In this document: one piece after another, positions 28,286-42,747 of the stretch | Position numbering within the stretch: the stretch's first letter is position 1 | Layout: each line of letters begins with the position of its first letter | DNA from: an uncultured Bdellovibrionales bacterium | GTDB lineage: Bacteria; Patescibacteriota; Minisyncoccia; Moranbacterales; JAKLHP01 | Direction: 5' to 3' | Length of the DNA: 64,000 nucleotides | NCBI GenBank assembly: GCA_964440305.1 | Contig: CAYTRS010000002.1 | Location: 4,048-68,047, forward strand | Translations under genes and position numbers: made by a program | The notes under the pieces: model-generated | Told to the model about the DNA's origin: nothing | Databases searched by the model: none | What the model saw: the letters and a program-made list of their open reading frames with translations, nothing else

Positions 28286-28334
28286 GAGTAATCTTCTTAA
28301 ATTTACCACGAGTCACCTCCTTTCTAGGGAAATA

Positions 28335-28349
28335 CGGTTGAGACCTCCG
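28335..28349. terminator. Weak hairpin between convergent operons
   Basis: ctccgattttcggag hairpin without a good U-run. Confidence 0.25.
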
Positions 28350-28480
28350 ATTTTCGGAGTTAAGAACCCATATGGTCGTTATAGACTTTAGCATCAGGGC
28401 AACCGCAAAAGTTTGCTATAAAAACAAAGACATTATTTCCGATCGTTTCTTTTTTGAAAAAATATCAACCATCTTCCGAT

Positions 28481-30214: not shown

Positions 30215-31247
30215 ATTCTTTTATATGCTCTTTAATCGCCTTACCTATTATGACCCCCAGTTGTGGAGGCACTGCATTTCCTATGTGACGACACAGCTGA
30301 GTCATCGGTAAATTCCCGAAATCATACGAAACGGGAAATGTTTGCAACATTGCTCCTTCCCTCAAAGAAATCGCCCTATCCTGCTCCGGATGTCCGAAGC
30401 GACCCGATCCGTAACTGGCAAATTGCGTCGTGATTGTGGGAGAGACTTCATTCCATCGCATGCGACCGTAGACCGATGTATATGTTTGACCGCTGTCTTT
30501 CTTGTAACATTCAGGTAACAATTTTTTATCCCAATCCTTCCAAGAGCCGCCCGGCTTGGATTGGTTGATTCTCTTCATATTAGTTTCGGAAAGACTTTTG
30601 GCTTGATGCATCGGATCTTTTTTGTCCTTTTGCCCGGCTTTCAGTTTCGGTAATTTTTTTATTATATCACCCACCGTAACATAATTTTCTTTCGAATGTG
30701 TTTCTTTGGGGACTTTGATTTCCCCAAGCCGCGAGGCAAGCAATATGAGACGGCTTCTGTTTTGCGGCACTCCGTAATCAGGTGCATACACAACCTTGTA
30801 ATCAACCTTATATCGCATTTCTTCTAATCTCTTCACGAAATTTTCAAAGACATCCTCTTTTGTCACGCCGCGCACATTTTCCATCGATACCAAATCCGGC
30901 TTTACGACTTCAATCGCTCGCACGAAGTGATCCAACATATTCCACCTTTCATCCTTACCTTTCTTTCGCTGCTTGAATGCATGCGATGAAAACGGCTGAC
31001 ATGGCGCGCATCCTACCAAAACTTTGTAACTGTCCTTGGAAAACATTTTTTTCAACTCCTTGAAATCGTACTTTGAAACATCGGCTAATATGAATTCCGC
31101 TTTGTTGTTTTTTTTATAGGCGACGGCACAAGACTCGTCATTGTCAAGACCGGCCAAAACATCAATTCCCGCCTTTTTCAGACCATAGGTAAGTCCGCCT
31201 ATGCCGCTGAACAAATCTATTGCTTCTATTTTTGTTTTATTTCTCAT
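30195..31247 (-). CDS. DNA (cytosine-5)-methyltransferase
   Basis: Motif I DLFSGIGG, motif IV GCAPCQPFS, motif VI ENV, C-terminal GNAVPPQL (motif X). Confidence 0.85.
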   Translation of the reverse strand: MRNKTKIEAIDLFSGIGGLTYGLKKAGIDVLAGLDNDESCAVAYKKNNKAEFILADVSKYDFKELKKMFSKDSYKVLVGCAPCQPFSSHAFKQRKKGKDERWNMLDHFVRAIEVVKPDLVSMENVRGVTKEDVFENFVKRLEEMRYKVDYKVVYAPDYGVPQNRSRLILLASRLGEIKVPKETHSKENYVTVGDIIKKLPKLKAGQKDKKDPMHQAKSLSETNMKRINQSKPGGSWKDWDKKLLPECYKKDSGQTYTSVYGRMRWNEVSPTITTQFASYGSGRFGHPEQDRAISLREGAMLQTFPVSYDFGNLPMTQLCRHIGNAVPPQLGVIIGKAIKEHIKEYERSTR

Positions 31248-31330
31248 TGATGATTGTTTTTAATTTTGTGACTACTTGCCATTTTAGGTTCAAACTCTTA
31301 CCTTCTTTAATTTTACTCTTAATCGGTCGC

Positions 31331-31456
31331 AGAGTAAAGAAAAACGGCCCGTATTTCGTCAAATTTCGCCCACAGGGGCGACTTTCGCGTCGAAAGGGTA
31401 TGGAAGTGCCAATATGCCAGAAACCGGAGTAAACCACTCCGGTTTGGCTGATTTCA
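31331..31456 (-). repeat. Conserved intergenic element copy 1 (upstream of the Dcm/GHKL operon), with extra hairpin ccggagtaaaccactccgg
   Basis: agtaaagaaaaacggcccgtatttcgtcaaatttcgcccacaggggcgactttcgcgtcgaaagggt is homologous to sequences at 35876-35935 and 42625-42700; internal hairpin cgccc-acag-gggcg. Confidence 0.55.
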
Positions 31457-31558
31457 TATAAGCGTCGCGAATCTGTCCCAACATTCGCATTTATTAACCG
31501 TCATGCGCTCATTGCGCTCACTTGCAATAAGCATAATCTTTGTTATGCCTACACAAAG

Positions 31559-32671
31559 TCATGCCTTTTTTATGGCAGACTCAATTAAATCATCGAAAGA
31601 TAGTTCGCCTTTTTTATAGGCGTCAAATGCAGCATCAAGTTCTTTATTTGTAAGAAATCCGTCATATCTAAGTTTTGGAACTGAATCAAAATTATTCTTC
31701 TTGGCTACAACTTTCATAACTTGTCTATTAAATTCATGAATCAAATATGATCTCATTGTATTTAAAAACTTTTTGTATCTCATGACTCTATATACATCAT
31801 AATATTGAGTCATTTTTAAATTATTTCCTTCTGTAAGGTAATGGAAGATAGTTCTTATCTTACTTTTTGCAAGATCATATTTTCTATTTTCGTCTGCATA
31901 GGCTACATATCTTGTTTTTTCAACAGAAAGCGCATGATCATCAGGATCCGCTCCGCTTTTAGCCTTATCCAAACCGAAATCCCAGAATTTTTTTATTTGC
32001 TTTAAATATTTCAAACTCGCTTTTGCTGGAGAATCGCTTGAAATAGGATATTTGCAATAAAAAACTTCTTCTGGCAAAAAGCTAACTTTTCTTGGGATTT
32101 CCTTGTCGCCGTATCCTTTAAAGTAATTCTTATTGGTAAAATAATAAGTTATAATACTATACTTCTGTAAATATTCAGCAATATGTCCATTTCTTTTTTT
32201 GATTTTCATTGTAGAATCACGCAAATAATCAAAATCTACTGGAAGGACATACTTATTGCTCTTAACATCAATCTCATCCCAGCATGTTCTATAAAAAGAA
32301 ATACCAGTGACCATGAGTTGATAAGCAATCATATTTAAAAACCCTCCAAGATCATCACCATTCCCATATAAATTGTCTCGGTATCGGGAATATTTATCAG
32401 TAAAATATTTTTCTAAATCTTCTTTTATTGTTAGGTTGTCACATTCAAATGAAAAATAATCTCTTTCATGCGTTATATATCCTGGTCTATCTGAAACTGG
32501 CACATCGCGAAGTGGAAATAATGAATTTCTTATAAACATTGTTTCGTTAAATAAGCCCATGGAATCACGAGAAGCAGCTTCTAGCCTAGAGTAGCCCTTG
32601 ATATAGCTCAAGAATGGATCGTCGATTGAGCTTCCATCTTTATCAAATATAGTTTTATTTCTTCGTTTCAT
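31559..32671 (-). CDS. Hypothetical protein (370 aa), third gene of an uncharacterized three-gene operon
   Basis: ORF track; 17-nt overlap with the upstream gene; no recognisable motif. Confidence 0.5.
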   Translation of the reverse strand: MKRRNKTIFDKDGSSIDDPFLSYIKGYSRLEAASRDSMGLFNETMFIRNSLFPLRDVPVSDRPGYITHERDYFSFECDNLTIKEDLEKYFTDKYSRYRDNLYGNGDDLGGFLNMIAYQLMVTGISFYRTCWDEIDVKSNKYVLPVDFDYLRDSTMKIKKRNGHIAEYLQKYSIITYYFTNKNYFKGYGDKEIPRKVSFLPEEVFYCKYPISSDSPAKASLKYLKQIKKFWDFGLDKAKSGADPDDHALSVEKTRYVAYADENRKYDLAKSKIRTIFHYLTEGNNLKMTQYYDVYRVMRYKKFLNTMRSYLIHEFNRQVMKVVAKKNNFDSVPKLRYDGFLTNKELDAAFDAYKKGELSFDDLIESAIKKA

Positions 32672-35126
32672 TGATTTTTGATAATACGGTTACAAAGCTT
32701 AAAACCTCCTCTCTTCTTTTTATAAATTCTACAAATTTTTCAACGCTATCATCTTCAATATTTCCAAGTCCATAACTAACTTCTCTGATAAATTTACTAG
32801 GATGATTGGCTACTTCCTGCATTCCAGAATAAAACCTAACATGGTCATATGTTTTTGGCATCTCAAGTATTTTATGATGAATCTGCGTATACCAATTGTG
32901 ATATTTCGTGGTTTCCCACTGGATAAGCTTAGTGGTTAAGTCAATGCCTCCAATGTTTCTTGCGTCTCCAAGGATTTCTATGGATTTTATGAAATAGCCT
33001 GGTCTGTAAGATTTTTCAAAAATTTTCACATACTCAATGAGCATTTTTTTATTTTGCTCCAATTCTGAGTGCAGAAACAAAAATCCTCCCAAGATAACTA
33101 CTAATCGATTTCTTAATATAAACATATCCGTGTTTGTTTCATTCACATTAAGCACGGATATTATTAGCGATAATATCTTGGATAGCTCTACAAATAATGC
33201 CTTTCTTTTTTTAAGAATAGATTGAAAAATAATCTTTTCTATTTCTTCAAGCAACTCGAGTTTAATGAGTATTTCTTTTGGGATGGTAAGTATGTAGGCA
33301 GCACACTTCGAAATGTCCTGAGAAAATTCATTTGCAAGAGTGAATTTATTTAGGTAAAACATTCTACTAATCCACTCGAATCTGATCTTTATAAAATGCG
33401 CACAATTTTCGTAATCTTTCTTCTTGATTAAATCAATTATGACATCTTCTTGATGATGAAGCATTTCACTAAAAAACTTCTTAAAAAGTTCTTTTTCTCT
33501 GCTTTTGACGCTACCCAACATTTCTTCCTCAAGATTTTTTACAGGAGTCATGATTTTGCCTTCGCACCCTTGTTCCAATTCCAAACGTTTCCAATAATCT
33601 ATAAATTGTTCATAGAAAATTGATGGCAGATCAATATTTTCTACAAAACCCTGACCATTTGAAAGCTTTCCATCATTACCAACTAAGGATCTGATGATCT
33701 CCTTGTATTTCTTGTATTTGAACCCGTCTATCAATACCAGTCCTGTTGTAAAATATGCATTCAAATAATCGTTTAGGTCTTCTTGCTTGGTTATATTTTT
33801 ATACAAATCCAAAAATGATCTAAAGAATTTATCATAAGTTTCAATTTCTTGATTTTCATAGATTCCATAAATCTTTTTCTGTCCACTATTAGTTTTTGAA
33901 TAATCACCACTTAATATGGTTTGATAAGATTTGATAACATGACTTAACAAATCTGGATTACTATTTATTGCATGGGATTGAATCTTTTGAAAAAGGGTAA
34001 AAGCATTATCTTCAAACCATGATAAATCTGGTTTTGGTAAAAATAACGGTCCAGTTCCTTGTAGCTCATAGTTGAGTTTTATAATGCTTTCAGATGAGCT
34101 ACCAGATTTTGCCAAATCGTGCTTTTGGTAAAACCACCATCCATTCTCCCTATCTATATACTTTTTATTTCCCGCGTACTCCGTAATGACAAAAGCAAGC
34201 ACAGTTGGAGCATAGATCGCATCACTATTGTTTTTAATTTTCAACAAATCATCAAATAAATTTTCGAGTAATCGCAACAATTTTCTAGTATTATTTCGAG
34301 CGTGCTGTACAAGGCTCCAACTTTTATACTTATAGGAAGATTTATCAGAAGCCGTTTTTATATTATCTCGAATATCACTCCAAAGTCTTTCAAATAGATG
34401 CTTGGGCTTAATTGTAACTATATAATGACTTTTGAAAATTATAATTCCCAATAAAGAAATAACGACCATCAAGCAAGCTATGGCAAAGCTAAATATTGGT
34501 TCAGGATAATCAAAAAATTCTGTTCGCAATAAAACAGAGATAGCCAGTAAATCAGTGAACACTAAAAGTTTAAAATAAAAGCTACCGACAGTTTCCTCAT
34601 TAACATAATCAGATACTTCCGATGAATATTTATCTGTACTTAATTGGAAGCCAACGGCGTATAAGGCAAATAATAAACCGAGAACCGCCGATATTGCACC
34701 AATAGATATCTCCAAAAACAACTCGATAAAATCTCGCCCAGGCACTCTGATGAAAGACAGGCTATTTGAAAATCCTTGTAATTGATCAAGTCCGATTAGC
34801 CATGCGGATGTTTTTGAAATAAGCAAGTCAATCGCAAATGAAACAACTATAAAAATAATAATCAGTGATATGATTTCACCCGACAACCTCACTATTTCAT
34901 TAACAATTTTATACTCCTTAATGCGCAATTGAAGTTTGAAGCTACTGACCCTAAAGCCCTCCTTCCTTTTTTGAAATTGATAATAAATAAATCCAAACAA
35001 TCTTGAAAAAAATTGATAAAATATATTACCATTTTCATCGCCAGGGTATGAATACTTTTTCTTTCTCTTTATCAGTCTGCTGATAAAGAGGAGCAAGAGG
35101 TATTTTATTGTTTTTAGATATCGCAT
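32655..35126 (-). CDS. Hypothetical 823-aa protein: N-terminal about 4 TM helices plus large helical cytoplasmic domain
   Basis: Hydrophobic segments about aa 75-230 (IISLIIIFIVVSFAIDLL, IGAISAVLGLLFALYAV, LLAISVLL, IACLMVVISLLGIIIF); rest K/E/L/I/F-rich helical; no NTPase or nuclease motif seen. Confidence 0.5.
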   Translation of the reverse strand: MRYLKTIKYLLLLFISRLIKRKKKYSYPGDENGNIFYQFFSRLFGFIYYQFQKRKEGFRVSSFKLQLRIKEYKIVNEIVRLSGEIISLIIIFIVVSFAIDLLISKTSAWLIGLDQLQGFSNSLSFIRVPGRDFIELFLEISIGAISAVLGLLFALYAVGFQLSTDKYSSEVSDYVNEETVGSFYFKLLVFTDLLAISVLLRTEFFDYPEPIFSFAIACLMVVISLLGIIIFKSHYIVTIKPKHLFERLWSDIRDNIKTASDKSSYKYKSWSLVQHARNNTRKLLRLLENLFDDLLKIKNNSDAIYAPTVLAFVITEYAGNKKYIDRENGWWFYQKHDLAKSGSSSESIIKLNYELQGTGPLFLPKPDLSWFEDNAFTLFQKIQSHAINSNPDLLSHVIKSYQTILSGDYSKTNSGQKKIYGIYENQEIETYDKFFRSFLDLYKNITKQEDLNDYLNAYFTTGLVLIDGFKYKKYKEIIRSLVGNDGKLSNGQGFVENIDLPSIFYEQFIDYWKRLELEQGCEGKIMTPVKNLEEEMLGSVKSREKELFKKFFSEMLHHQEDVIIDLIKKKDYENCAHFIKIRFEWISRMFYLNKFTLANEFSQDISKCAAYILTIPKEILIKLELLEEIEKIIFQSILKKRKALFVELSKILSLIISVLNVNETNTDMFILRNRLVVILGGFLFLHSELEQNKKMLIEYVKIFEKSYRPGYFIKSIEILGDARNIGGIDLTTKLIQWETTKYHNWYTQIHHKILEMPKTYDHVRFYSGMQEVANHPSKFIREVSYGLGNIEDDSVEKFVEFIKRREEVLSFVTVLSKINETKK

Positions 35127-35130
35127 GACC

Positions 35131-35838
35131 TTATTTCAATCTAGCATATTCTTCTTTTAATCTGATTAACATCTCCGGATAATACCGAAAAAAGCTTTGT
35201 ATCTTTTTGATATCGCCGTTGGAAATTTTCCCTTTTTTCATACTGTCAAACTCCAATGTATTTATATCGAACCGCGCATCAATATTTCTTTGCTTTGAAA
35301 TTACATGGAAATGTGCAGGCGGGTGGTCTTTCGGATGCAACTCCATTCTTAAATCACCGGCAGCAGCTATAAATCTTTTTATTTTATAGACCGTGCCATC
35401 CGGCAACACCTGCGTCGAATCAAGGTGTACTTCCAATAAGTCCGCGACACTCCTCTTTAATCTTGGCGCGATTAACTCATCCCTCGTGTTATCCTTGGTA
35501 TTGGTTTTGTCGTCGAGAGTGAGAGCTAGCTCTTTCGGATCAAGATATTTCTTGCAATCTGACCATATAGTGTTTTTATTTCCCTTTTTAAAATTTTCAA
35601 ATTCGGATTCGACTTCAAATAATCCCACAACGACACCAAGCGCGTATTCACCGTCTTTTAATCGAAATACTTCTCCGTAAAAAACAGTGCCGACATGTTT
35701 GTCCCAATCATGCTCTATGAGATAAGGAATATATTTGCTATTGATCTGGTCGGCCATACCCTCAAGCGCATTTTTGGACATACGTTCTCCATGCCTGTCC
35801 ACATGGGTAGTGCTCATTATTCCAGTAATAATCCTCAT
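35131..35838 (-). CDS. Fusion protein: unknown N-terminal domain (~150 aa) plus C-terminal DUF4160 (HxPxHFH) domain
   Basis: C-terminal LRMELHPKDHPPAHFHVISKQRNIDARFDINTLEFDSMKKGKISNGDIKKIQSFFRYYPEMLIRLKEEY matches the DUF4160 pattern (…RDHNPPHFHA…G…I…L…W). 5-nt gap to the next gene. Confidence 0.5.
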   Translation of the reverse strand: MRIITGIMSTTHVDRHGERMSKNALEGMADQINSKYIPYLIEHDWDKHVGTVFYGEVFRLKDGEYALGVVVGLFEVESEFENFKKGNKNTIWSDCKKYLDPKELALTLDDKTNTKDNTRDELIAPRLKRSVADLLEVHLDSTQVLPDGTVYKIKRFIAAAGDLRMELHPKDHPPAHFHVISKQRNIDARFDINTLEFDSMKKGKISNGDIKKIQSFFRYYPEMLIRLKEEYARLK

Positions 35839-35875
35839 TTTTTATAAATGTCAAATCAATTAACCTTAGCTAGGC

Positions 35876-35935
35876 TCTATTTCGCCAAATTTCGCCCACA
35901 GGGGCGATTACCACCCGAAAGCGTCCGAACATGCT
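35876..35935 (-). repeat. Conserved intergenic element copy 2 (upstream of the three-gene operon)
   Basis: ctatttcgccaaatttcgcccacaggggcgattaccacccgaaagcg: 33/34-nt identity with copy 1 core. Confidence 0.55.
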
Positions 35936-35977
35936 TATTTACTGGAAATCGGTCCAAACTCGCTCAAAGCCAAAAAG

Positions 35978-36715
35978 CTATCTTATCGAATTCCAATTAT
36001 CCAAAAAGTAGTCCATCTCATGATCCATATTCCCGAGGTATACGTGATTGTCTCTGAATTTTATATTCACGCGATAGCGTTTGCCTTGTCCCACTTCCAA
36101 TATTGCTTTTTCATGTACCTTCTTTTCTATCTCAAGAAAAGGCAAGATTAAAAAATGATTCTGTTTTTCTCCATGTAAAACAAAAATGTAAAATACACTG
36201 CCACTATTGTGACGTTCGAATGATACTTTTCTGATATCGAAAACATAGGCATCAAAACGGTTTAGGTTGGAGGTTTTCACTTGTATTCCAAAAAGTTGAG
36301 TTCCTTTTACTGCCACGATATCCATTCCGACATCTACGCTCATAATACTGGCGTTGAAACCGCGAAAAAGCAGTTCGCTGCAAACCAAGTGCTCGCCGCC
36401 TTTCCCTGTGAATCCACTTTCTACAACCAGTCTCTCTTCCGCCTCTTTTTCGGCTTCTATAATTTTCGGCGTTTGCTTTACCTCTTTTTTATCATGATTA
36501 AGCGTAAAAGTTCCGGGTGCGGTTTTCATGAAATCCGAGCCCTTGCCCTTGTTTTTAATATCTACCGTAATTTGGGCGTTCATTGAAGCTTCAGGCGTTG
36601 CTCCTTCGGTCTCTAAAATTCCCGATTCCAAAGCCAACCGCGTGATTTCGGTGTAATGCAAAGACTTTCCTGCTTTTTTCAGCACTTTGATTGCTGATTG
36701 TTTGAATGTGTTCAT
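35978..36715 (-). CDS. Mrr_N/HARE-type winged-helix plus Hjc-like PD-(D/E)xK nuclease fusion (putative restriction-type endonuclease), last gene of the Type I R-M operon
   Basis: N-terminal SAIKVLKKAGKSLHYTEITRLALESGILETEGATPEASMNAQI (Mrr N-terminal-like wHTH). C-terminal GEHLVCSELLFRGFNASIMSVDVGMDIVAVKGTQLFGIQVKTSN resembles archaeal Hjc (…ER.L…L…GF.A.R…PDI.A.K……IE.K.S) with E…D…(I/V)QVK. 3-nt gap to hsdR. Confidence 0.5.
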   Translation of the reverse strand: MNTFKQSAIKVLKKAGKSLHYTEITRLALESGILETEGATPEASMNAQITVDIKNKGKGSDFMKTAPGTFTLNHDKKEVKQTPKIIEAEKEAEERLVVESGFTGKGGEHLVCSELLFRGFNASIMSVDVGMDIVAVKGTQLFGIQVKTSNLNRFDAYVFDIRKVSFERHNSGSVFYIFVLHGEKQNHFLILPFLEIEKKVHEKAILEVGQGKRYRVNIKFRDNHVYLGNMDHEMDYFLDNWNSIR

Positions 36716-36718
36716 ATT

Positions 36719-39700
36719 TTATTCTGTAAATTTACCACCCGATATATCAAAGAATCTTTCAAAGAAATTCGTGAGTTTCGTTAAAACACTCTCACGCTTT
36801 TTGGAACGCTCGCCGGTCGGAGAAAAGCGGGATACAGGAGGCAAGACCTTAGTAATAGCAGTACCGGTTGTCGCTACACTACCGTCACGGAAAGCATTTT
36901 TTACAAACGCATAAGTTGCATCGTGATCCAAACCTTCATTGTCAATAATTTTTTCAAGCTCCTCAATCTTTTTCTTATTCACGAATTTCTGCCAATCATC
37001 ATCAACCACCGAATGAATATCAAGTGAAGTGATAAACTGATTAATGAGATCTTTCTTATTGCGTAGTTCAATGCTTGAGTCTATTGCTTTATTAATATCA
37101 ACCAAAATCTCGCGATTTTTATTGTGGTCTTCGTGATATTTCTTGATGAGTCCCAACACAAAGTCAATATTTATTTCTACCTGCTTGATAAGCTCCATCT
37201 CAAACACTAAATCATCGTTAATATTTTCCTGATCAATGTCTGCATTTTTACGAAATTCATTGTACAGATCAATGTACATACTATGATAATCTTGAATATC
37301 GCGCTCAGTTAAAATCTCATTGCCGGCAAACTCATCAAAAGTTGTCAAAATGTTACGAACTCGTAATATCCCGCCATAGAGCTTGATAAAATCTTTCTGT
37401 TTTTGTTCGCCAATGATTTGCTCACCGACTGGGAATTTTTCCAGGAGCTCTGCCACTAAACCTGTATATCCGCGCACTTCCTTGTTACCGTCTTTGTAGC
37501 CGTTATAATACTCCTCGTATGATTTAAGAAGTACAATACCGCCCGCTTCTTTATCGCCAAATAGAGCTATGGATTCGTTTGTCGCTTTCTCTAGGTTACG
37601 GAAGCAAACAATGTTTCCAAAGGTCTTTACGCTATTTAAAATACGATTGGTACGCGAAAATGCCTGCAAGAGTCCATGCAGTCTCAAGTTTTTATCCACC
37701 CAAAGCGTGTTCAGCGTTGTGGCGTCAAAGCCGGTCAAAAACATATTGACCACAATCAGGACATCAATCTCGCGGTTTTTCACTCTCAAACTCACGTCTT
37801 TGTAATAATTTTGAAACTTATCCGATGAAGTATCAAAAGACGTTCCAAACATCGCATTGTAATCAATAATTGCATTATCAAGAAAATCTCTTGAACTCAC
37901 ATCGAGTCCGCTCGTATCTTCTGAGTTTTCGTCTATCATTCCATCGGCGTCTTCATCATTCACGCCGAAGCTATAAATTGTTGCTATCTTGAGTTGTTTG
38001 TCACTCGGTACATTTGTGAGTTGTTTTTTAAATTCGGCATAATACTTTTTTGCGACATCAATGGACGAAACCGCAAATATAGAATTAAAGCCTGCTAATC
38101 TTCTGTCCTTCAGTTTATAAAAACTGTTACGCTTGGTCTTTTGGTCAAAATGTTCGCGAATGTAGCTGACGATATTTGCTAAGCGCTCTGGCGAAGCAAG
38201 TACCGCCTCTCGATCGATATCACTGACTTTCTTATCTTCAATATTTTCAGCTTCACGAACAGTAGAAACATAATCCACTTTAAACGGCAAAACATTTTTA
38301 TCAGCGATGGCATTTACAATGGTGTAGGTATGCAGTTTTTCACCAAAGGCTTGCTCGGTGGTTTTCAAGTCCGGTCGTCCGCTAGAAGACGCGTTCATGG
38401 CAAAAATTGGTGTACCGGTAAAACCAAAGAGGTTGTAATTCTTGAATGTTTTGGTAATAGCGGCGTGCATATCGCCAAACTGTGAACGGTGACATTCGTC
38501 AAAGATAAGCACTACATGCCCATCAAAAATAGTATGCCCGGAATTGCGCCCAATAAAACGATCGAGTTTCTGGATAGTGGTGATGATAATTCGTGCGTTC
38601 GGATTTTCCAATTGTTTCTTCAAAATCGCCGTACTGGTATTACTATTGGCCGCACCTTTCTCAAACTTATCGTATTCTCGCATGGTCTGATAGTCCAAGT
38701 CCTTGCGGTCAACCACAAACATCACCTTATCCACATACGTCAATCTACTCACGAGCTGGGCAGTCTTGAAACTGGTCAAAGTTTTTCCCGATCCGGTCGT
38801 GTGCCAAATGTACCCTCCAGCCTCAACCGTGCCAAGTTTCTTGTAGTTCGTGCTGACTTCAATGCGACTCAATATTCTCTCTGTCGCCACTATCTGATAT
38901 GGTCGCATCGCCAAAAGCTGTCGTTCAGTGGTAAAAACACAATAGCGGGTCAAAATATTTAAAAGCGCGTGTTTGGCAAAAAATGTCTTGACAAAATCCA
39001 TCAGATCCGTAATTGGTCGATTGGTAGCATCTGCCCACCAACTGGTAAATTCAAAACTGCTGCTAGAGCGCTTACCTTTTTTCACCGCACCCTCACTGGC
39101 TTCTTTGATATGCTCCGAACGGACGGTGTTGCTATAATATTTTGTATGCGTGCCATTGGAAATTATAAATAGTTGAACATATTCAAAAAGCCCCGCCGAA
39201 GCCCAAAAACTTTCGCGTTGATAACGGTTAATCTGATTGAATGCCTCGGCAATAGCGACTCCACGGCGCTTGAGCTCGACATGCACCATCGGCAAACCAT
39301 TAACAAGAATCGTTACATCATAGCGATTAGCGCGTTGCCCATCTTCAGTCGCATATTGATTGATGACCTGCAAGCTATTGTCGTGAATGTTGTCTTTTTT
39401 TATAAGATACACATTTTTGACTGTTCCGTCCTCGCGCGTCAGGTTTCTAATATGATCTTCTTGGATCGTTGCTGTTTTTTCTGCAATGCTTTGGTTTGGA
39501 TTGGCAATTTCACTTGCAAAGAAATTCTCCCATTCAGCATCAGCAAAAGTAAACCCATTGAGTTTCTCCAATTGCAAACGGAGGTTCGATACCAAATCAG
39601 ATTCAGATGTGATAGCTAGATATTCGTACGCTTGCGTTTCGAGTTGTTTTATAAAAGCACGCTCCAGATCCGCCTCGCTTTGATAAGAAACACCATCCCG

Positions 39701-39793
39701 TACCCGATCTGCGAGCTTATAATACTCAGCGACAACGGTGCTTTGAGGATTTTCTGCAACTAGATTGTATTTTTTATTATTTGGCATATTCAT
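36719..39793 (-). CDS. hsdR: Type I restriction enzyme R subunit (HsdR)
   Basis: 1024 aa; SF2 helicase motifs TTGSGKTLTSF (Walker A), DECHRSQ (DEAH); HsdR_N-like N-terminus; operon with hsdM/hsdS. Confidence 0.9.
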   Translation of the reverse strand: MNMPNNKKYNLVAENPQSTVVAEYYKLADRVRDGVSYQSEADLERAFIKQLETQAYEYLAITSESDLVSNLRLQLEKLNGFTFADAEWENFFASEIANPNQSIAEKTATIQEDHIRNLTREDGTVKNVYLIKKDNIHDNSLQVINQYATEDGQRANRYDVTILVNGLPMVHVELKRRGVAIAEAFNQINRYQRESFWASAGLFEYVQLFIISNGTHTKYYSNTVRSEHIKEASEGAVKKGKRSSSSFEFTSWWADATNRPITDLMDFVKTFFAKHALLNILTRYCVFTTERQLLAMRPYQIVATERILSRIEVSTNYKKLGTVEAGGYIWHTTGSGKTLTSFKTAQLVSRLTYVDKVMFVVDRKDLDYQTMREYDKFEKGAANSNTSTAILKKQLENPNARIIITTIQKLDRFIGRNSGHTIFDGHVVLIFDECHRSQFGDMHAAITKTFKNYNLFGFTGTPIFAMNASSSGRPDLKTTEQAFGEKLHTYTIVNAIADKNVLPFKVDYVSTVREAENIEDKKVSDIDREAVLASPERLANIVSYIREHFDQKTKRNSFYKLKDRRLAGFNSIFAVSSIDVAKKYYAEFKKQLTNVPSDKQLKIATIYSFGVNDEDADGMIDENSEDTSGLDVSSRDFLDNAIIDYNAMFGTSFDTSSDKFQNYYKDVSLRVKNREIDVLIVVNMFLTGFDATTLNTLWVDKNLRLHGLLQAFSRTNRILNSVKTFGNIVCFRNLEKATNESIALFGDKEAGGIVLLKSYEEYYNGYKDGNKEVRGYTGLVAELLEKFPVGEQIIGEQKQKDFIKLYGGILRVRNILTTFDEFAGNEILTERDIQDYHSMYIDLYNEFRKNADIDQENINDDLVFEMELIKQVEINIDFVLGLIKKYHEDHNKNREILVDINKAIDSSIELRNKKDLINQFITSLDIHSVVDDDWQKFVNKKKIEELEKIIDNEGLDHDATYAFVKNAFRDGSVATTGTAITKVLPPVSRFSPTGERSKKRESVLTKLTNFFERFFDISGGKFTE

Positions 39794-40952
39794 TGAATGT
39801 TAGAAGCTTTCCTTGATAGTATTCATATTGTTGTCTGCGAGCAGAAAGTTCTGCTGGCAAACCAATTGAGATGTCGTTCACCAGCGCTTCAAGTTTATCA
39901 AGTATAGCCACAACGCTGTTCTGATGTGATAGATCAGGAATTTGCACAGTCGCTTTCTTTAAAATATCGTATGAAATAAAGGGCTGTGAACCTGCATGTG
40001 CTTGTGATCTAAAATCTTGTAAAAGTAAAAGATAATAACCATACCTTGGATTAATATTTGTCTTAATTTTACAGATTACTCCGTTATATGTAACAAAGTG
40101 TTTTCCCTTAACCCAATTAACAATACCCGCATATGCGCCAATATGGCCTATTACAGGCGCATCCTCACTATTATATTGATCATGTTGACCAGCTAAACGA
40201 TTACCACCATATACTGGATATTTTCCTCCTGTGTTCGGGATAGTATTGCCTTCGCCATATTGAAAATCGTAAATATCACCTAATGCTTTCCAATCCCCCT
40301 TATTGCTAGACAGCATTAAATCTTTTCTATAATACTCATACTGTTTCTTTCTTGCTTCTAGCTCTGCTTCTAGCTCTGCTTCTAGCTCTGTGAAATTATT
40401 AAGTACCTTAATAATTTCCTCTTGCACCGCAATCGGCGGGAGAGGTATTATAATTTTTGCAAAACGCTTTTTTGAAACATTAAATCGCGTTACACCACTT
40501 GCAGTTTTTGCAATTTGTTTTCTCATCTGTTCATCCCTAAATAAATATTTTGAAAATTCTGGTAAAAGCAGATTGGTATTATGAAAACGAAAACCAAAAC
40601 AGAAACTATTTAGATACAATGAACCATCGGCTTCTTTAGTTAAAACAGATGACATTCCGCACTCGTTCGGTGTTTCGGACGATCCTGTAAATAACACGTC
40701 CCCGTATTCAATTTTGTTCTGGTTTTCATCTTTACTCACCTTTACAAAAGTATTAATATCAGTATTGACTGCAATATTAGAAAAGATATTCATGTAGGTA
40801 ACAAATTTTGCGTTACCATTACTAAAATCATCCTTGCTCTTTCCAGACAGTCCGCCATAAAAATCGCCGAGTTTTCCCAACTCCTTAAACTCCACCCCAT
40901 TCGGGCAGAGTTCGGCGATCAGCTTTTCGATTTTGCTTACATGTTTAGTCAT
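39777..40952 (-). CDS. hsdS: Type I restriction-modification specificity subunit (HsdS), two target-recognition domains
   Basis: Start placed at the in-frame ATG at 40950-40952 (MTKHVSKIEKL…), 1 nt after the hsdM stop. Central conserved coiled-coil ELEAELEAELEARKKQYEYYRKDLM and C-terminal …RRQQYEYYQGKLLTF. Confidence 0.8.
   Translation of the reverse strand: MTKHVSKIEKLIAELCPNGVEFKELGKLGDFYGGLSGKSKDDFSNGNAKFVTYMNIFSNIAVNTDINTFVKVSKDENQNKIEYGDVLFTGSSETPNECGMSSVLTKEADGSLYLNSFCFGFRFHNTNLLLPEFSKYLFRDEQMRKQIAKTASGVTRFNVSKKRFAKIIIPLPPIAVQEEIIKVLNNFTELEAELEAELEARKKQYEYYRKDLMLSSNKGDWKALGDIYDFQYGEGNTIPNTGGKYPVYGGNRLAGQHDQYNSEDAPVIGHIGAYAGIVNWVKGKHFVTYNGVICKIKTNINPRYGYYLLLLQDFRSQAHAGSQPFISYDILKKATVQIPDLSHQNSVVAILDKLEALVNDISIGLPAELSARRQQYEYYQGKLLTFNEYAK
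40351..40390 (-). repeat. 12-bp tandem repeat (GAGCTAGAAGCA)x3 encoding (ELEA)x3 in the HsdS central spacer
   Basis: Plus-strand cttctagctctg repeated three times at 40361-40390. Confidence 0.7.
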
Positions 40953-40953
40953 A

Positions 40954-42564
40954 TTATTTTGTTCCTTCAATATCAGCCACAATTTTATCAATTGAAATAC
41001 GCAGTTCATTTTGCCTTGCGACAATCTGAGCAATTTTTGAGTTGAGAGAAGTGATGTCCACCACCTCACGCATGTCCTCCCTCACAACATAGCTTGATAC
41101 AGCGATATTGTAGTCGTTCTCAGTAATAGCTTTGTTTTCAACAAGTTTGGTAAAATAGTCTGTGTCTTTACGAGTCGTAAACGCTTCCAAAATCTTGAGG
41201 CGATTTGCCTCGCTCAATTTGTTTTTATTGCCACCACGAACAAATTCGGCAGATGCATCAATAAAAAGTGTTTTATTATCCTTCTTACTTTTTTTGAGAA
41301 CGATGATGCAGGTGGCGATAGTAGTGCCGAAAAAGAGATCAGGCGGCAGTTGAATGACCGCATCAACATAATTATTGTCTATCAGATACTTTCGAATTTT
41401 ACCCTCTGCACCACCACGATAAAGAACGCCAGGAAATTCAACAATCGCCGCCGTTCCGCTCGTTGATAGCCATGCAAGCATATGCATGGTAAAAGCGAGG
41501 TCGGCTTTGCTCTTTGGTGCTAATACTCCTGCTGGCGAGAAACGAGGATCGTTAATGAGAAGAGGATTCGCGTCACCCTCCCAATGAATTGAATACGGCG
41601 GATTGGAAACGATAGCATCAAACGGCTCGTCATCCCAATGCTTTGGATCTATGAGTGTATCACCGTGAGCAATATCAAAATTGTTGTAGTTGATGTCGTG
41701 CAGGAACATGTTAATACGACAAAGATTGTAGGTGGTGAGGTTAATTTCCTGTCCAAAAAAGCCTTGCCTAACATTTTCTCTGCCTAGGACCTTGGCAAAC
41801 TTGAGAAGCAAGGAGCCAGAACCACAAGCTGGATCATAGACCTTGTTCACTTCTTTTTTGCCAACCGTTGTGATTTCAGCCAGAAGTTCACTGACTTCCT
41901 GGGGAGTATAAAATTCACCACCAGACTTACCGGCGTTTGAAGCATACATGGTCATCAAAAACTCATACGCATCACCGAAAGCATCTATGGTATTGTCTGA
42001 ATAGTCACCAAGTCGTAGATCGCCAATAGATTCAAAAAGTTTTGTAAGTTTCTGATTTCTTTTTTCTACCGTACCACCAAGTTTATTGGAATTTACATCA
42101 AGATCTGCAAACAACCCTTTGATGTCATCTTCGCTGTCTGCACCCTTTGCGGAATTTTCAATATTTCTAAAAACGGCGGTAAGCGTTTCGTTAAGATTGG
42201 CATCATTACGAGCGTTCTTACGAACATTAATAAAAAGCTCACTCGGTAAAATATAAAACCCTTTTTCTACTACGGTATCGGATCGACCGAACTCTGCTTC
42301 TTTATTGGAAAGTGTGGCATAGTCAAAATCTTTTTTACCAGCACGATGTTCTTCAGTATTAATATGATTGGTCAAATTCTCACTTATGAAGCGATAAAAG
42401 AGTATTCCAAGCACATACTGCTTAAAGTCCCAACCGTCCACGCTTCCACGCAAATCATTGGCAATCTGCCAAATAGCACGATGTAATTCTGAGCGCTCTT
42501 GCTCCTTGGTCATGTTCAAATCTTTATCTTTTTTGCTCATAAAATTATTTTTTTCTAAACGCAA
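40954..42564 (-). CDS. hsdM: Type I R-M N6-adenine DNA methyltransferase subunit (HsdM)
   Basis: NPPY motif (VSNPPYSIHWEG), SAM motif DPACGSGSLL, HsdM N-terminal domain. Confidence 0.9.
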   Translation of the reverse strand: MRLEKNNFMSKKDKDLNMTKEQERSELHRAIWQIANDLRGSVDGWDFKQYVLGILFYRFISENLTNHINTEEHRAGKKDFDYATLSNKEAEFGRSDTVVEKGFYILPSELFINVRKNARNDANLNETLTAVFRNIENSAKGADSEDDIKGLFADLDVNSNKLGGTVEKRNQKLTKLFESIGDLRLGDYSDNTIDAFGDAYEFLMTMYASNAGKSGGEFYTPQEVSELLAEITTVGKKEVNKVYDPACGSGSLLLKFAKVLGRENVRQGFFGQEINLTTYNLCRINMFLHDINYNNFDIAHGDTLIDPKHWDDEPFDAIVSNPPYSIHWEGDANPLLINDPRFSPAGVLAPKSKADLAFTMHMLAWLSTSGTAAIVEFPGVLYRGGAEGKIRKYLIDNNYVDAVIQLPPDLFFGTTIATCIIVLKKSKKDNKTLFIDASAEFVRGGNKNKLSEANRLKILEAFTTRKDTDYFTKLVENKAITENDYNIAVSSYVVREDMREVVDITSLNSKIAQIVARQNELRISIDKIVADIEGTK

Positions 42565-42624
42565 ATTAACAACGCGTCTCTCGTCATTTCAATATTTTAA
42601 TAATACTCCCGAACGACGATAAAG

Positions 42625-42700
42625 TAAAGAAAAACAGCCCTTATTCGGCCAAATTCGGTCCAACGGGCGATTTTTATGCCGAAAGGGTGCAACTACCCCG
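42625..42700 (-). repeat. Conserved intergenic element copy 3 (upstream of hsdM)
   Basis: agtaaagaaaaacagcccttattcggccaaattcggtccaacgggcgatttttatgccgaaagggtg aligns with copy 1. Confidence 0.55.
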
Positions 42701-42747
42701 AAGCCGGGATTCTTTCTGCCACGCCCTCAATTTTTCCTTCAGCCCTT

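What the first reader, a model, noticed from the sequence alone, without database searches (positions are those of the whole stretch)
35978..36715. Mrr_N-like winged-helix fused to an Hjc-like PD-(D/E)xK nuclease, translationally coupled to hsdR
The 245-aa protein starts with a HARE/Mrr-N-type wHTH (…LKKAGKSLHYTEITRLALESGILETEGATPEASMNAQI…) and ends with GEHLVCSELLFRGFNASIMSVDVGMDIVAVKGTQLFGIQVKTSN. That C-terminal segment aligns motif-for-motif with archaeal Holliday-junction resolvase Hjc (E…D…EVK core).

It begins 3 nt after hsdR ends, so it is the fourth gene of the hsdM-S-R operon. An Mrr-like domain order but with an Hjc-type rather than Mrr_cat nuclease, attached to a Type I system, suggests an auxiliary restriction activity riding on the Type I operon, for example a modification-dependent or structure-specific nuclease.
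Basis: partly seen in the sequence, partly recalled or inferred. Interest (0 to 1): 0.55.

Follow-up and report, generated by a model that had tools for sequence, protein, structure and literature searches.

The report
DNA-reader nuclease riding restriction-modification operons
The gene encodes a small two-part protein, a DNA-binding "reader" joined to an intact DNA-cutting domain, that sits as an optional last gene behind many kinds of bacterial restriction systems; proteins of this kind have been described from genome analysis before, and this family has never been tested in the laboratory.

Summary
A 245-aa ORF lies at 35978-36715 on the minus strand and starts 3 nt after hsdR, as the last gene of a tightly packed hsdM-hsdS-hsdR cluster.

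Residues 3-72 are a HARE-HTH domain (Pfam E=1.8e-17). Residues 104-245 model confidently as a PD-(D/E)xK nuclease. Its best solved-structure matches are archaeal Hjc resolvases and the homing endonuclease I-Ssp6803I (Pfam PDDEXK_5).

The invariant residues are E108, D128, D132, Q145, with K147 nearly invariant. The motif is therefore E…D…QVK, not EVK.

The gene is not specific to Type I systems. Homologues, mostly from Patescibacteria, follow a same-strand gene within 30 nt in 58 of 74 loci. That gene may belong to a Type I, IIB/IIG, II or III R-M system, or be a pAgo or reverse-transcriptase gene. An N6-adenine methyltransferase lies within five genes upstream in 37 of 61 loci and downstream in 0 of 60.

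The gene evolves independently of HsdR. It is missing behind 63 of 65 close HsdR relatives and has decayed to a stub in one.

It most likely acts as an accessory or back-up restriction nuclease whose HARE-HTH reads DNA modification state. HARE-HTH-nuclease fusions in R-M neighbourhoods were already described computationally, so this is a new member of a known kind with unproven biochemistry.

The parts
35978..36715 (-). Complete ORF of 245 aa plus stop. It encodes a HARE-HTH domain fused to a PD-(D/E)xK nuclease and is identical to NCBI HOX10599.1.
   Evidence: ORF list, exact-sequence look-up, and 771 homologues at E<=1e-3.
36500..36709 (-). HARE-HTH winged-helix domain, residues 3-72.
   Evidence: Pfam PF05066, E=1.8e-17. 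The model shows helices 4-15, 21-30 and 41-59 and strands 62-66 and 69-72. A family profile weakly matches the ASXL1 HARE-HTH in PDB 8h1t (E=0.088).
36407..36499 (-). Charged, poorly conserved linker, residues 73-103.
   Evidence: pLDDT falls to 57-68 and is below 50 at residues 98-103. This is the least conserved segment, with 38% mean pairwise identity against 74% for the nuclease core.
35981..36406 (-). PD-(D/E)xK nuclease domain, residues 104-245, resembling PDDEXK_5, I-Ssp6803I and Hjc.
   Evidence: Pfam PDDEXK_5 gives E=0.0049, below the cut-off, for this protein, but 50 of 74 relatives hit it with best E=2.2e-10. Foldseek against PDB returns Hjc 2wcw (E=1.7e-4), 2eo0, 4tkd and 1ob8, and I-Ssp6803I 2ost with TM 0.60-0.62 over 142-160 columns. 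phrog_5018 matches at E=7.7e-8.
36392..36394 (-). E108, a predicted catalytic or metal-binding glutamate at the start of helix 108-117.
   Evidence: Invariant in 74 diverse relatives.
36320..36322 (-). D132, the predicted catalytic aspartate (the 'PD' position) just before strand 133-137. D128, four residues earlier, is also invariant.
   Evidence: Invariant. hhalign places it opposite D33 of P. furiosus Hjc.
36275..36283 (-). Q145-V146-K147, the '(D/E)xK' motif in its QxK variant, within strand 140-150.
   Evidence: The codons read CAA GTG AAA. Q145 is invariant and V146 and K147 are conserved in at least 90% of relatives. hhalign places them opposite E46-V-K48 of Hjc.
36716..36718 (-). The 3-nt spacer between the hsdR stop codon and the target ATG.
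   Evidence: Sequence read. The same TAA-AAT-ATG junction, with ATG changed to ATA, is kept in the decayed copy in L087.
36719..39793 (-). hsdR, a Type I restriction subunit with its own nuclease domain. It is context, not a partner that co-evolves with the target.
   Evidence: Pfam HSDR_N 1.8e-42, SWI2_SNF2 5.6e-56, T1R_D3-like 1.7e-59 and EcoR124_C 2e-68.
39777..41069 (-). hsdS specificity subunit, given as the longest ORF. The true start is probably the ATG near 40955, which overlaps the hsdM stop; this is my inference.
   Evidence: Pfam Methylase_S, 1.5e-29, two stretches.
40954..42564 (-). hsdM, an N6-adenine DNA methyltransferase and the first gene of the cluster.
   Evidence: Pfam N6_Mtase 4e-113 and HsdM_N 9.8e-20.

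Best explanation
The gene encodes a free-standing two-domain nuclease. An N-terminal HARE-HTH winged helix is joined by a flexible linker to a compact PD-(D/E)xK nuclease of the I-Ssp6803I/Hjc type (Pfam PDDEXK_5 neighbourhood), with a complete E108…D132…Q145-x-K147 active site.

Shown here:
- The gene is under strong purifying selection.
- It is typically the promoter-distal gene packed directly behind another gene, most often part of an R-M system that methylates adenine N6.
- Each upstream R-M system whose components were identified here already has its own nuclease.
- The gene is exchanged and lost independently of those systems.

Inferred:
- It is co-transcribed with the upstream operon, and in this window probably translationally coupled to hsdR.
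- The HARE-HTH docks the protein on duplex DNA and reads its modification state.
- The nuclease domains then pair up, as Hjc does in dimers and I-Ssp6803I and the SPARDA DREN domain do in tetramers, and cut the DNA.
- This gives the host a second, Type IV-like or back-up restriction layer. It would act against DNA that escapes the neighbouring R-M system, for example phage DNA with modified bases.

It is not a subunit of the Type I enzyme.
For: Domains and fold:
- HARE-HTH hits at E=1.8e-17.
- The AlphaFold model has mean pLDDT 85.6, with both domains well defined.
- Foldseek top hits are Hjc, I-Ssp6803I, Hje, the SPARDA DREN nuclease and SSV D212, all at probability 1.0.
- 50 of 74 relatives hit PDDEXK_5.

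Active site:
- E108, D128, D132 and Q145 are invariant and K147 is conserved in at least 90% of 74 sequences that are only 24-64% identical to the query.
- hhalign registers D132 and QVK on Hjc D33 and EVK. The Hjc sequence used was verified as PDB 1gef.

Selection:
- dN=0.024 and dS=0.545 against L001, a ratio of about 0.04.

Context:
- 58 of 74 loci have a same-strand upstream gene within 30 nt, against 359 of 924 background gene pairs (p=3e-11). The downstream side matches background.
- An N6A methyltransferase lies within 5 genes upstream in 37 of 61 loci and downstream in 0 of 60.
- Upstream genes include HsdR, HsdS, Type III Res, BcgI-like nuclease-methylase fusions, AlwI, D12 methylases, pAgo, a reverse transcriptase and a ThsB TIR protein.

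Independence from HsdR:
- In L001 the target is 95% identical but HsdR only 26%. In L071 HsdR is 86% identical but the target only 62%.
- DNA homology with syntenic relatives L001 and L006 covers only the ORF (35971-36716), while the upstream cassette has been replaced.
- Among 65 close HsdR relatives with downstream sequence, one has a distant family member and one has a stub whose start codon is now ATA.

Literature:
- HARE-HTH fused to REase domains has been proposed as a modified-DNA discriminator in R-M, Dnd and BREX neighbourhoods (PMC4738411, PMC10853773, PMC12839542).
Against: - No member of this family has been tested, so DNA binding, cleavage, oligomeric state and modification dependence are all inferred.
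- The window protein scores below the Pfam cut-off for PDDEXK_5 (17.3 against 26.1 bits) and has no NCBIfam hit; its only PADLOC hit is a weak partial match to Csx1 (E=0.0066).
- Typical Type IV enzymes are solitary. For the wH-nuclease fusions studied in PMC11037411, 87% had no methyltransferase among the three genes on either side. This family is instead strongly and directionally linked to N6A methyltransferases. That fits functional dependence on methylation, or simple use of a borrowed promoter, at least as well as it fits an independent Type IV role.
- A modification-dependent enzyme sitting next to m6A methylases cannot be targeting m6A in those sequence contexts, so its target modification is unknown.
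- One Saccharibacteria MAG appears to carry two copies, each behind its own Type I system (L020, L071). That is unexpected for a general-purpose Type IV enzyme.
Confidence: 0.55

Rival explanations
1. The protein is a methylation-state-reading restriction arm that depends on the upstream methylase. The HARE-HTH would distinguish adenine-methylated self DNA from unmethylated DNA, and the nuclease would cut only the unmethylated form. Any m6A R-M system placed upstream would then license it. This is the reading given by Iyer, Zhang and Aravind for HARE-HTH-endonuclease fusions.
For: - The link to N6A methylases is strong and one-directional: 37 of 61 loci upstream against 0 of 60 downstream.
- The gene is tightly packed behind the upstream gene in 58 of 74 loci.
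- One MAG has two copies, each behind its own Type I system.
- PMC4738411 states that such fusions 'serve as restriction enzymes in N6A-modifying R-M systems'.
Against: - The neighbouring methylases differ in type and sequence specificity (Type I with varied HsdS, BcgI-like, MmeI/Eco57I-like, D12). A protein conserved at 60-95% identity cannot match each specificity. It would have to sense m6A density in general, and no precedent is known to me.
- 19 of 61 loci have no R-M component detected in the five upstream genes.
- Each upstream R-M system whose components were identified here already has a nuclease.
- The gene is lost without loss of the R-M system in L087.
Confidence: 0.15
2. The gene is a selfish, free-standing endonuclease gene of the homing type. 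It would insert itself at the 3' ends of operons, borrowing their promoters, and spread with or between mobile R-M cassettes without benefiting the host.
For: - The only characterised member of PDDEXK_5 is a homing endonuclease (PMC3384342, PMC3424549).
- 5 of 74 relatives carry the homing-endonuclease-associated HNH_repeat in place of HARE-HTH.
- DNA homology between related loci stops at the ORF ends.
- The gene's phylogeny is decoupled from its neighbours'.
- It is spread patchily across phyla at high identity.
- Large serine recombinases lie directly downstream in 3-4 loci.
- A decayed copy exists in L087.
Against: - There is no conserved insertion target, because the upstream genes are unrelated to one another.
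- No intron or intein context was found, and no group I intron appears in 28-43 kb.
- Purifying selection is strong and uniform (dN/dS about 0.04), with 33 invariant residues across 60 subfamily members. Homing endonuclease genes usually degenerate quickly.
- dS for the target (0.55) is similar to dS for the syntenic dcm gene (0.63). This argues against a recent separate arrival at this locus.
- No match was found in the plasmid or phage collections.
Confidence: 0.1
3. The protein is a structure-specific nuclease, a Holliday-junction or fork resolvase as some JGI annotations say. It would either be a housekeeping enzyme or would process branched DNA produced when translocating R-M motors stall.
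For: - The best solved-structure matches are Hjc and Hje resolvases.
- JGI names several homologues 'Holliday junction resolvase'.
Against: - No Pfam Hjc (PF01870) hit appears for this protein or among the 16 families matched by 74 relatives.
- The fold is equally close to I-Ssp6803I and to the SPARDA DREN nuclease, which cut duplex DNA.
- The fused reader domain and the defence-gene neighbourhoods do not suit a housekeeping resolvase.
- The family is rare: 138 confirmed hits among 185,579 species genomes, a lower bound from a pattern scan.
- It has been lost in L087.
Confidence: 0.08
4. The protein is a dedicated fourth subunit or partner of this Type I enzyme. It might be an alternative nuclease recruited by HsdR or HsdM, or a PrrC-like effector that fires when the Type I enzyme is inhibited.
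For: - The gap to hsdR is 3 nt.
- 16 of 61 loci have a full M+S+R set within five genes upstream.
- The PrrC/EcoprrI pair is a precedent for effectors embedded in hsd loci (recalled from my own knowledge).
Against: - Most loci are not Type I.
- The target and HsdR have decoupled histories.
- 63 of 65 close relatives of this HsdR lack the gene.
- The same conserved protein follows HsdR, HsdS, HsdM, Res, AlwI, D12 methylases or pAgo, so a specific protein-protein interface is unlikely.
Confidence: 0.05

Closest known systems
HARE-HTH-restriction-endonuclease fusions of prokaryotic R-M, Dnd and BREX neighbourhoods. These were defined computationally by Aravind & Iyer 2012 and discussed in PMC4738411, PMC10853773, PMC12839542 and PMC3417536.
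   Same: - An N-terminal HARE-HTH is fused to a PD-(D/E)xK REase-fold domain.
- The gene is encoded immediately downstream of DNA-modification genes.
- It is linked to N6-adenine methylases.
- It is interpreted as an auxiliary or back-up nuclease that discriminates modification state.
   Different: - I could not read the 2012 paper, so I do not know whether this particular subfamily (PDDEXK_5/Hjc-like nuclease, 245 aa, mainly Patescibacteria) is listed there.
- The figures measured here do not appear in the passages of those papers that I read: the upstream-only methylase association, the decoupling from HsdR and the loss in a close relative.
I-Ssp6803I (PDB 2ost; Pfam PDDEXK_5, PF11645), a cyanobacterial intron-encoded homing endonuclease.
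   Same: - It has the best full-domain structural overlap, with TM 0.60-0.62 over 142-160 columns.
- It belongs to the closest Pfam family.
- It is a compact PD-(D/E)xK core that is itself structurally closest to Hjc and PvuII (PMC3384342).
   Different: - I-Ssp6803I is a single-domain tetramer encoded in a group I intron, and it recognises a long specific site.
- This protein has an added HARE-HTH domain, is free-standing behind R-M genes, and has no intron context.
- It scores below the family cut-off.
Archaeal Holliday-junction resolvase Hjc/Hje (PDB 2wcw, 2eo0, 4tkd, 1gef, 1ob8; Pfam PF01870).
   Same: - These are the top Foldseek hits, with E=1.7e-4 and probability 1.0.
- The order and spacing of catalytic elements are the same. 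hhalign puts D132 opposite D33 and QVK opposite EVK.
   Different: - Q replaces the second acidic residue.
- There is no PF01870 hit.
- This protein has two domains and 245 aa, against about 120-140 aa for Hjc.
- It has about 55 further C-terminal residues (193-245) that form an extra sheet.
- It sits in defence contexts rather than recombination contexts.
- Junction specificity has not been tested.
E. coli Mrr, a Type IV enzyme with Mrr_N wHTH plus Mrr_cat, encoded beside hsdR in the immigration control region. This comparison is recalled from my own knowledge.
   Same: - The domain order is a winged helix followed by a PD-(D/E)xK nuclease.
- It uses the QxK variant of the motif.
- It is encoded next to a Type I hsd locus.
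- 5-10 of 74 relatives give weak Mrr_cat or Mrr_cat_2 hits.
   Different: - The wHTH here is HARE-HTH, not Mrr_N.
- The window protein has no Mrr_cat hit at E<=10.
- mrr is transcribed separately from hsdR, whereas this gene is packed into the operon.
DREN nuclease domain (DUF4365) of SPARDA short-pAgo systems (PDB 9qcc, 9jsz, 9vx6).
   Same: - It is a structural neighbour, with probability 0.99-1.0.
- 8 of 74 relatives hit DUF4365.
- It is a defence nuclease activated by oligomerisation. The SPARDA papers found mention I-Ssp6803I, which I did not read them to confirm as the comparison made.
- Two Chitinophagaceae homologues sit directly behind pAgo genes.
   Different: - DREN is fused to APAZ and controlled by an Argonaute.
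- Here the nuclease is fused to a HARE-HTH, and no activating partner is evident.

Membership tests
HARE-HTH-REase fusion proteins of R-M neighbourhoods (Aravind & Iyer 2012) | HARE-HTH domain (Pfam PF05066) present | tested here: met
   E=1.8e-17, 63.9 bits against a cut-off of 25.9, residues 3-72.
HARE-HTH-REase fusion proteins of R-M neighbourhoods (Aravind & Iyer 2012) | Fused restriction-endonuclease-fold domain with catalytic residues intact | tested here: met
   Model pLDDT is 85.6. Foldseek hits to PD-(D/E)xK nucleases have probability 1.0. E108, D132 and Q145 are invariant and K147 is conserved in at least 90% of relatives.
HARE-HTH-REase fusion proteins of R-M neighbourhoods (Aravind & Iyer 2012) | Encoded in R-M or DNA-modification gene neighbourhoods, notably with N6A methylases | tested here: met
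   In the window it follows hsdMSR. An N6A methylase lies within 5 upstream genes in 37 of 61 loci.
HARE-HTH-REase fusion proteins of R-M neighbourhoods (Aravind & Iyer 2012) | HARE-HTH discriminates modified from unmodified DNA | not testable with these tools
   This needs binding assays. It remains a prediction in the literature as well (PMC10853773, PMC11037411).
PDDEXK_5 (PF11645; I-Ssp6803I family) | Score at or above the Pfam gathering cut-off | tested here: not met
   The window protein scores 17.3 bits against a cut-off of 26.1, E=0.0049. However, 50 of 74 relatives match at E<=0.01 with best E=2.2e-10. Homologues 52-78% identical carry precomputed PF11645 hits.
PDDEXK_5 (PF11645; I-Ssp6803I family) | Fold superposes on I-Ssp6803I over the whole domain | tested here: met
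   2ost chains A-C give TM (target-normalised) 0.60-0.62 over 142-160 columns at probability 1.0.
PDDEXK_5 (PF11645; I-Ssp6803I family) | Intron-encoded homing endonuclease with a long specific target | tested here: not met
   The ORF is free-standing between hsdR and a DUF4160 gene. No group I intron or other Rfam family was found in 28000-43000. Target specificity cannot be tested here.
Archaeal Hjc resolvase (PF01870) | PD-(D/E)xK fold with E…D…E-x-K catalytic residues | tested here: inconclusive
   The fold and the register of motifs match. The second acidic residue is Q145 in every one of the 74 relatives.
Archaeal Hjc resolvase (PF01870) | Sequence membership (Pfam Hjc model) | tested here: not met
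   PF01870 is absent from the window protein's hits at E<=10 and from the 16 families hit by 74 relatives. A family profile finds no Hjc chain in the PDB at E<=10.
Archaeal Hjc resolvase (PF01870) | Homodimer that cleaves four-way junctions specifically | not testable with these tools
   This needs biochemistry or a multimer model.
Mrr-type Type IV restriction enzyme | Mrr_N wHTH plus Mrr_cat nuclease (Pfam) | tested here: not met
   Neither family is among the window protein's hits at E<=10. Mrr_cat matches 5 of 74 and Mrr_cat_2 matches 10 of 74 relatives, only weakly.
Mrr-type Type IV restriction enzyme | Cleaves only modified DNA and has no cognate methylase | tested here: inconclusive
   Cleavage cannot be tested here. 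The gene is usually co-operonic with methylases (37 of 61 loci), which is unlike typical solitary Type IV genes.
Type I R-M system component (a fourth subunit) | Consistent co-occurrence with hsdR, hsdM and hsdS | tested here: not met
   A full M+S+R set lies upstream in 16 of 61 loci. Only 1 intact copy and 1 decayed copy were found behind 65 close HsdR relatives.
Type I R-M system component (a fourth subunit) | Co-evolution with the partner subunits | tested here: not met
   In L001 the target is 95% identical and HsdR 26%. In L071 HsdR is 86% identical and the target 62%.

The most novel reading that the evidence does not exclude
The family is a portable, promoter-less tail-end nuclease that can plug into any adenine-methylating restriction system. 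Its HARE-HTH would read the m6A state written by whichever methylase lies upstream, and so license or block cutting. That would give very different R-M systems (Type I, IIB/IIG, III) a shared second restriction arm or fail-safe. The one-directional methylase linkage, the two copies behind two Type I systems in one MAG, and the retention of the gene while upstream cassettes are swapped would all follow from this.
Probability: 0.12. Interest if true: 0.65.

Novelty: new member of a known kind. Interest (0 to 1): 0.3.

Why it matters
If the proposed function is right, this is a widespread and untested accessory nuclease of restriction systems. At least 770 cluster representatives (clustered at 90% identity) were found, and the nuclease domain has 515 family representatives at 50% clustering. 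It is especially common in Patescibacteria, whose defence repertoire is poorly known.

It would also offer a simple test of what a prokaryotic HARE-HTH domain actually reads. That question bears on the eukaryotic ASXL and HB1 proteins that carry the same domain.

The practical outcome for annotation is modest. Database labels such as 'winged helix-turn-helix domain-containing protein' and 'Holliday junction resolvase' could be replaced by 'HARE-HTH/PD-(D/E)xK nuclease, R-M associated'.

The class is already in the comparative-genomics literature, so this does not open a new category.

Tried and rejected
Searches that found nothing or could not run:
- Sequence searches of the PDB with the protein and with a 74-sequence profile gave no nuclease hit. 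Only a weak ASXL1 HARE-HTH match appeared.
- NCBIfam gave no hit.
- PADLOC gave only a weak partial Csx1 match for the window protein. Among relatives, 8 of 74 weakly match the candidate PDC-S01 and 1 matches PD-T4-1. The family is therefore not a catalogued defence system in PADLOC v2.
- tblastn against the plasmid and phage collections found no match.
- The Aravind & Iyer 2012 paper is not held.

Methods that were replaced:
- A first neighbour survey with single-sequence phmmer missed many HsdR genes. I replaced it with Pfam scans of neighbour sets and iterated HMMs.

Ideas considered and set aside:
- Cognate Type II endonuclease of the adjacent D12 methylase. Rejected because the same conserved protein follows methylases of unrelated types and specificities.
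- Recent independent horizontal arrival at this locus. Not supported, because the target's dS (0.55) is close to that of syntenic dcm (0.63).
- The repeated intergenic element as a general cassette junction. It is absent from L006, is not at the corresponding junction in L001, and the exact 18-mer core is absent from the 85 loci held at that point.
- A conserved downstream partner gene. Downstream neighbours are heterogeneous.
Full report
**1. The observation**

The six-frame ORF list shows a 245-aa ORF at 35978-36715 on the minus strand. The raw sequence puts the hsdR stop codon (TAA) at 36719-36721 and the target ATG at 36713-36715, which leaves a 3-nt spacer.

Pfam identifies the three genes upstream on the same strand:
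- hsdM, 40954-42564 (N6_Mtase, 4e-113).
- hsdS, 39777-41069 (Methylase_S, 1.5e-29).
- hsdR, 36719-39793 (HSDR_N 1.8e-42, SWI2_SNF2, T1R_D3-like, EcoR124_C 2e-68).

These genes overlap or abut, so the target is the fourth and last gene of a compact cluster. The next gene, a DUF4160 protein at 35131-35838, follows after 139 nt. The simple promoter and terminator scan found nothing significant between hsdR and the target. It cannot rule out an internal promoter.

The exact protein is in NCBI as HOX10599.1, 'winged helix-turn-helix domain-containing protein [Candidatus Moranbacteria bacterium]'.

**2. The protein**

Residues 3-72 match HARE-HTH (PF05066) at E=1.8e-17. Residues 104-197 match PDDEXK_5 (PF11645) at E=0.0049, which is below the curated cut-off. 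NCBIfam and PDB sequence searches gave nothing, and PADLOC gave only a weak partial Csx1 match (E=0.0066).

A search of 1.84 billion cluster representatives with the C-terminal 156 residues found 515 relatives at E<=1e-3. Most are 240-260 aa with the domain at the C-terminus. Some are stand-alone proteins of about 155 aa, and a few are longer.

I aligned 74 of these, which are 24-64% identical to the query. E108, D128, D132 and Q145 are invariant. G104, G107, E114, N121, G130, V146, K147 and Y176 are conserved in at least 90%.

When the 74 relatives were scanned individually, the hits were as follows:

| Pfam family | Relatives hitting (of 74) |
|---|---|
| PDDEXK_5 | 50 (best E=2.2e-10) |
| HARE-HTH | 38 |
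| Mrr_cat_2 | 10 |
| DUF4365 | 8 |
| Mrr_cat | 5 |
| HNH_repeat (homing-endonuclease-associated) | 5 |

The nuclease core is thus combined with several different N-terminal DNA-binding modules.

**3. Structure**

An AlphaFold2 model built from a 60-sequence alignment has mean pLDDT 85.6. Two well-defined domains are joined by a low-confidence linker at residues 73-103.

The catalytic residues fall where a PD-(D/E)xK nuclease has them. E108 opens helix 108-117, D132 precedes strand 133-137, and Q145 and K147 lie in strand 140-150.

Foldseek against the PDB ranks the following at probability 1.0:
- A. fulgidus Hjc (2wcw, E=1.7e-4) and Sulfolobus Hjc (2eo0, 4tkd).
- I-Ssp6803I (2ost), with TM 0.60-0.62 over 142-160 columns, which is the whole domain.
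- Hje (1ob8), the SPARDA DREN nuclease (9qcc, 9jsz) and the fusellovirus nuclease D212.

Against viral models the matches are stand-alone phage PD-(D/E)xK proteins and resolvases. phrog_5018 matches at E=7.7e-8.

hhalign of the family profile against it is weak (E=0.011). It does align D132 with D33 and Q145-V-K147 with E46-V-K48.

I-Ssp6803I is itself reported as structurally closest to Hjc and PvuII (PMC3384342), so the Hjc-like and PDDEXK_5-like descriptions agree with each other.

**4. Is it a Type I feature?**

It is not. A scan of one genome per GTDB species gave 138 confirmed relatives, of which 80 loci were fetched. Most come from Patescibacteria. Others come from Chitinophagaceae, Maribacter, Omnitrophota and further groups. 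One homologue is labelled as a Woesearchaeota archaeon.

*Position.* In 58 of 74 non-redundant loci the gene lies within 30 nt downstream of a same-strand gene. The background rate among other gene pairs in the same loci is 359 of 924 (Fisher p=3e-11). The downstream spacing is no different from background.

*Upstream genes.* The immediately upstream gene varies widely:
- ResIII helicases in 15 loci, 10 of them with HSDR_N and at least 3 being Type III Res proteins with RE_endonuc.
- N6_Mtase or Eco57I-type methylases in 7 loci.
- D12 methylases in 6 loci.
- HsdS in 6 loci.
- AlwI in 2 loci.
- T5orf172-helicase fusions.
- BcgI-like HSDR_N_2 plus N6_Mtase fusions with a separate S subunit.
- KilA-N, a trypsin-like peptidase, a reverse transcriptase, a ThsB TIR protein, pAgo, and once a malic enzyme.

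*Methylase linkage.* I built iterated HMMs from these loci. With them, an N6-adenine methylase lies within five genes upstream in 37 of 61 loci and within five genes downstream in 0 of 60. A complete M+S+R set is present in 16 of 61 loci, and 19 of 61 have no R-M component detected.

*Downstream genes.* Downstream neighbours are heterogeneous. The only recurring type is large serine recombinases, in 3-4 loci.

**5. Independence from HsdR**

- In locus L001, a related genome with syntenic flanks, the target is 95% identical in protein (90% in DNA). Its HsdR is only 26% identical and its HsdM 31%.
- In L071 the HsdR is 86% identical but the target only 62%.
- blastn of the window against L001 and L006 finds homology at 35971-36716, which is the ORF and nothing more, and in distant flanks (30078-31399 and 42594-45600).
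- The cassette between those flanks has been replaced, by a different Type I system in L001 and by a 969-aa ResIII/TnsA-like helicase-nuclease in L006.
- The target is under strong purifying selection, with dN=0.024 and dS=0.545. Its dS is similar to that of the syntenic dcm gene (0.63).

I also looked from the HsdR side. A metagenome scan with the C-terminal 350 residues of this HsdR returned 80 loci at 59-88% identity. Of the 65 with at least 800 nt downstream, only two show any trace of the family:
- L096 carries a family member right after hsdR. It is a distant 262-aa HARE-HTH/E…D…QVK protein (E=3.5e-23).
- L087 keeps the TAA-AAT junction followed by ATA in place of ATG, then about 95 nt of the target's 5' end, after which homology stops.

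The gene is therefore an optional add-on that can be lost while the Type I system stays.

**6. Mechanism**

The following points are shown:
- The protein combines an intact, selected reader domain with an intact nuclease domain.
- The gene is tightly packed at the distal end of operons that usually encode m6A-type R-M systems.
- Each upstream R-M system whose components were identified here has its own nuclease.
- The gene is inherited and lost independently of those systems.

The following steps are inferred:
- The gene is co-transcribed, and here translationally coupled, with the upstream operon.
- The HARE-HTH binds duplex DNA and senses its modification state.
- The nuclease domains act as dimers or tetramers, by analogy with Hjc, I-Ssp6803I and DREN.
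- The host gains a second restriction layer, Type IV-like or back-up.

This matches what the Aravind group proposed for HARE-HTH-REase fusions in N6A R-M, Dnd and BREX neighbourhoods (PMC4738411, PMC10853773, PMC12839542).

The main difficulty is the directional methylase link. It is much stronger than for characterised wH-nuclease Type IV enzymes, of which 87% have no methylase nearby (PMC11037411). That link also fits two other readings: a nuclease that depends on the upstream methylase, or a promoter-less gene that borrows expression.

If the enzyme depends on modification, it cannot be targeting m6A in the contexts written by its neighbours. I rate the rivals as follows:

| Rival | Confidence |
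|---|---|
| Methylase-dependent restriction arm | 0.15 |
| Selfish homing-type gene | 0.10 |
| Junction resolvase | 0.08 |
| Dedicated Type I partner | 0.05 |

**7. Comparison with known families and novelty**

- The protein meets the testable criteria for the published class of HARE-HTH-REase fusions in R-M neighbourhoods.
- It falls just below the Pfam cut-off for PDDEXK_5 but shares its fold.
- It does not meet sequence membership of Hjc or of Mrr_cat.
- It fails both tests for being a Type I subunit.
- I found no experimental work on this family.

It is therefore a new member of a known kind. The new details are the measured polarity, the upstream-only methylase link, the decoupling from HsdR and the decayed copy. 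These are useful but not surprising to a specialist. I score interest at about 0.3.

Noticed in passing
window 31352-31381, 35878-35907 and 42641-42670: A 30-nt intergenic element (TATTTCGyCAAATTTCGCCCACAGGGGCGA) occurs twice at 97% identity, with a weaker third copy at 67%. The copies lie near the points where DNA homology with related loci L001 and L006 starts or stops, that is, at the edges of swapped cassettes. There is no Rfam match. One diverged copy exists in L001 (14031-14051) and none in L006. It could be a terminator or promoter, or a recombination junction.
   Followed up: partly
window 31559-35838 (minus strand): Directly after the target lies a block of three genes: a DUF4160 protein (235 aa), a DUF2254-like membrane protein (823 aa) and a 370-aa protein with no family. 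In L001 this block is replaced by a 992-aa SMC-like protein, and in L006 by other genes. It may be an uncharacterised defence cassette in a variable hotspot.
   Followed up: no
window 28481-31247 (minus strand): A C5 cytosine methylase (350 aa) overlaps a HATPase_c_3 (MORC/MutL-like) ATPase (577 aa). From my own knowledge this resembles a MORC-type R-M pair. Against L001 the methylase is 95% identical in protein but the ATPase only 40%, so the partner has been swapped or has diverged very fast.
   Followed up: partly
L087 4050-4150: This is a decayed copy of the target behind an HsdR 87% identical to the window's. The start codon is ATA and only about the first 95 nt are kept. Further downstream (5155-5847) lies a gene that, from reading its translation, looks like an Mrr_cat-like nuclease with a zinc ribbon; no domain search was run on it.
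   Followed up: partly
L096 4038-4826: A distant 262-aa relative with the same architecture (HARE-HTH plus an E…D…QVK nuclease) overlaps the stop codon of an HsdR 82% identical to the window's. This suggests that the same kind of gene was recruited separately to the same position.
   Followed up: partly
L053 3787-5844 and L055 7352-9421: In two Chitinophagaceae genomes the homologue sits just downstream of a prokaryotic Argonaute (Piwi-domain) gene. In L055 that gene in turn follows an M+S pair. The nuclease domain also resembles the SPARDA DREN domain.
   Followed up: no
L009 6801-8300; L007 2973-3860: Other defence-type genes are wedged between hsdS and the target homologue. L009 has a reverse transcriptase (RVT_1). 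L007 has a trypsin-like peptidase, and L014 has a same-length (296 aa) gene in that position that was not scanned on its own.
   Followed up: no
L020 and L071 (contigs CAZNUY010000016.1 and CAZNUY010000001.1): One Saccharibacteria MAG appears to carry two diverged copies of the gene, 80% and 62% identical to the window protein. Each sits directly behind its own Type I HsdR. A binning error cannot be excluded.
   Followed up: partly
L025 10726-12183 and other loci: Large serine recombinases (Resolvase, Recombinase and Zn_ribbon_recom domains) lie immediately downstream of the homologue in 3-4 loci, and one lies upstream in L035. This suggests that some of these R-M-plus-target units sit on integrative elements.
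   Followed up: no
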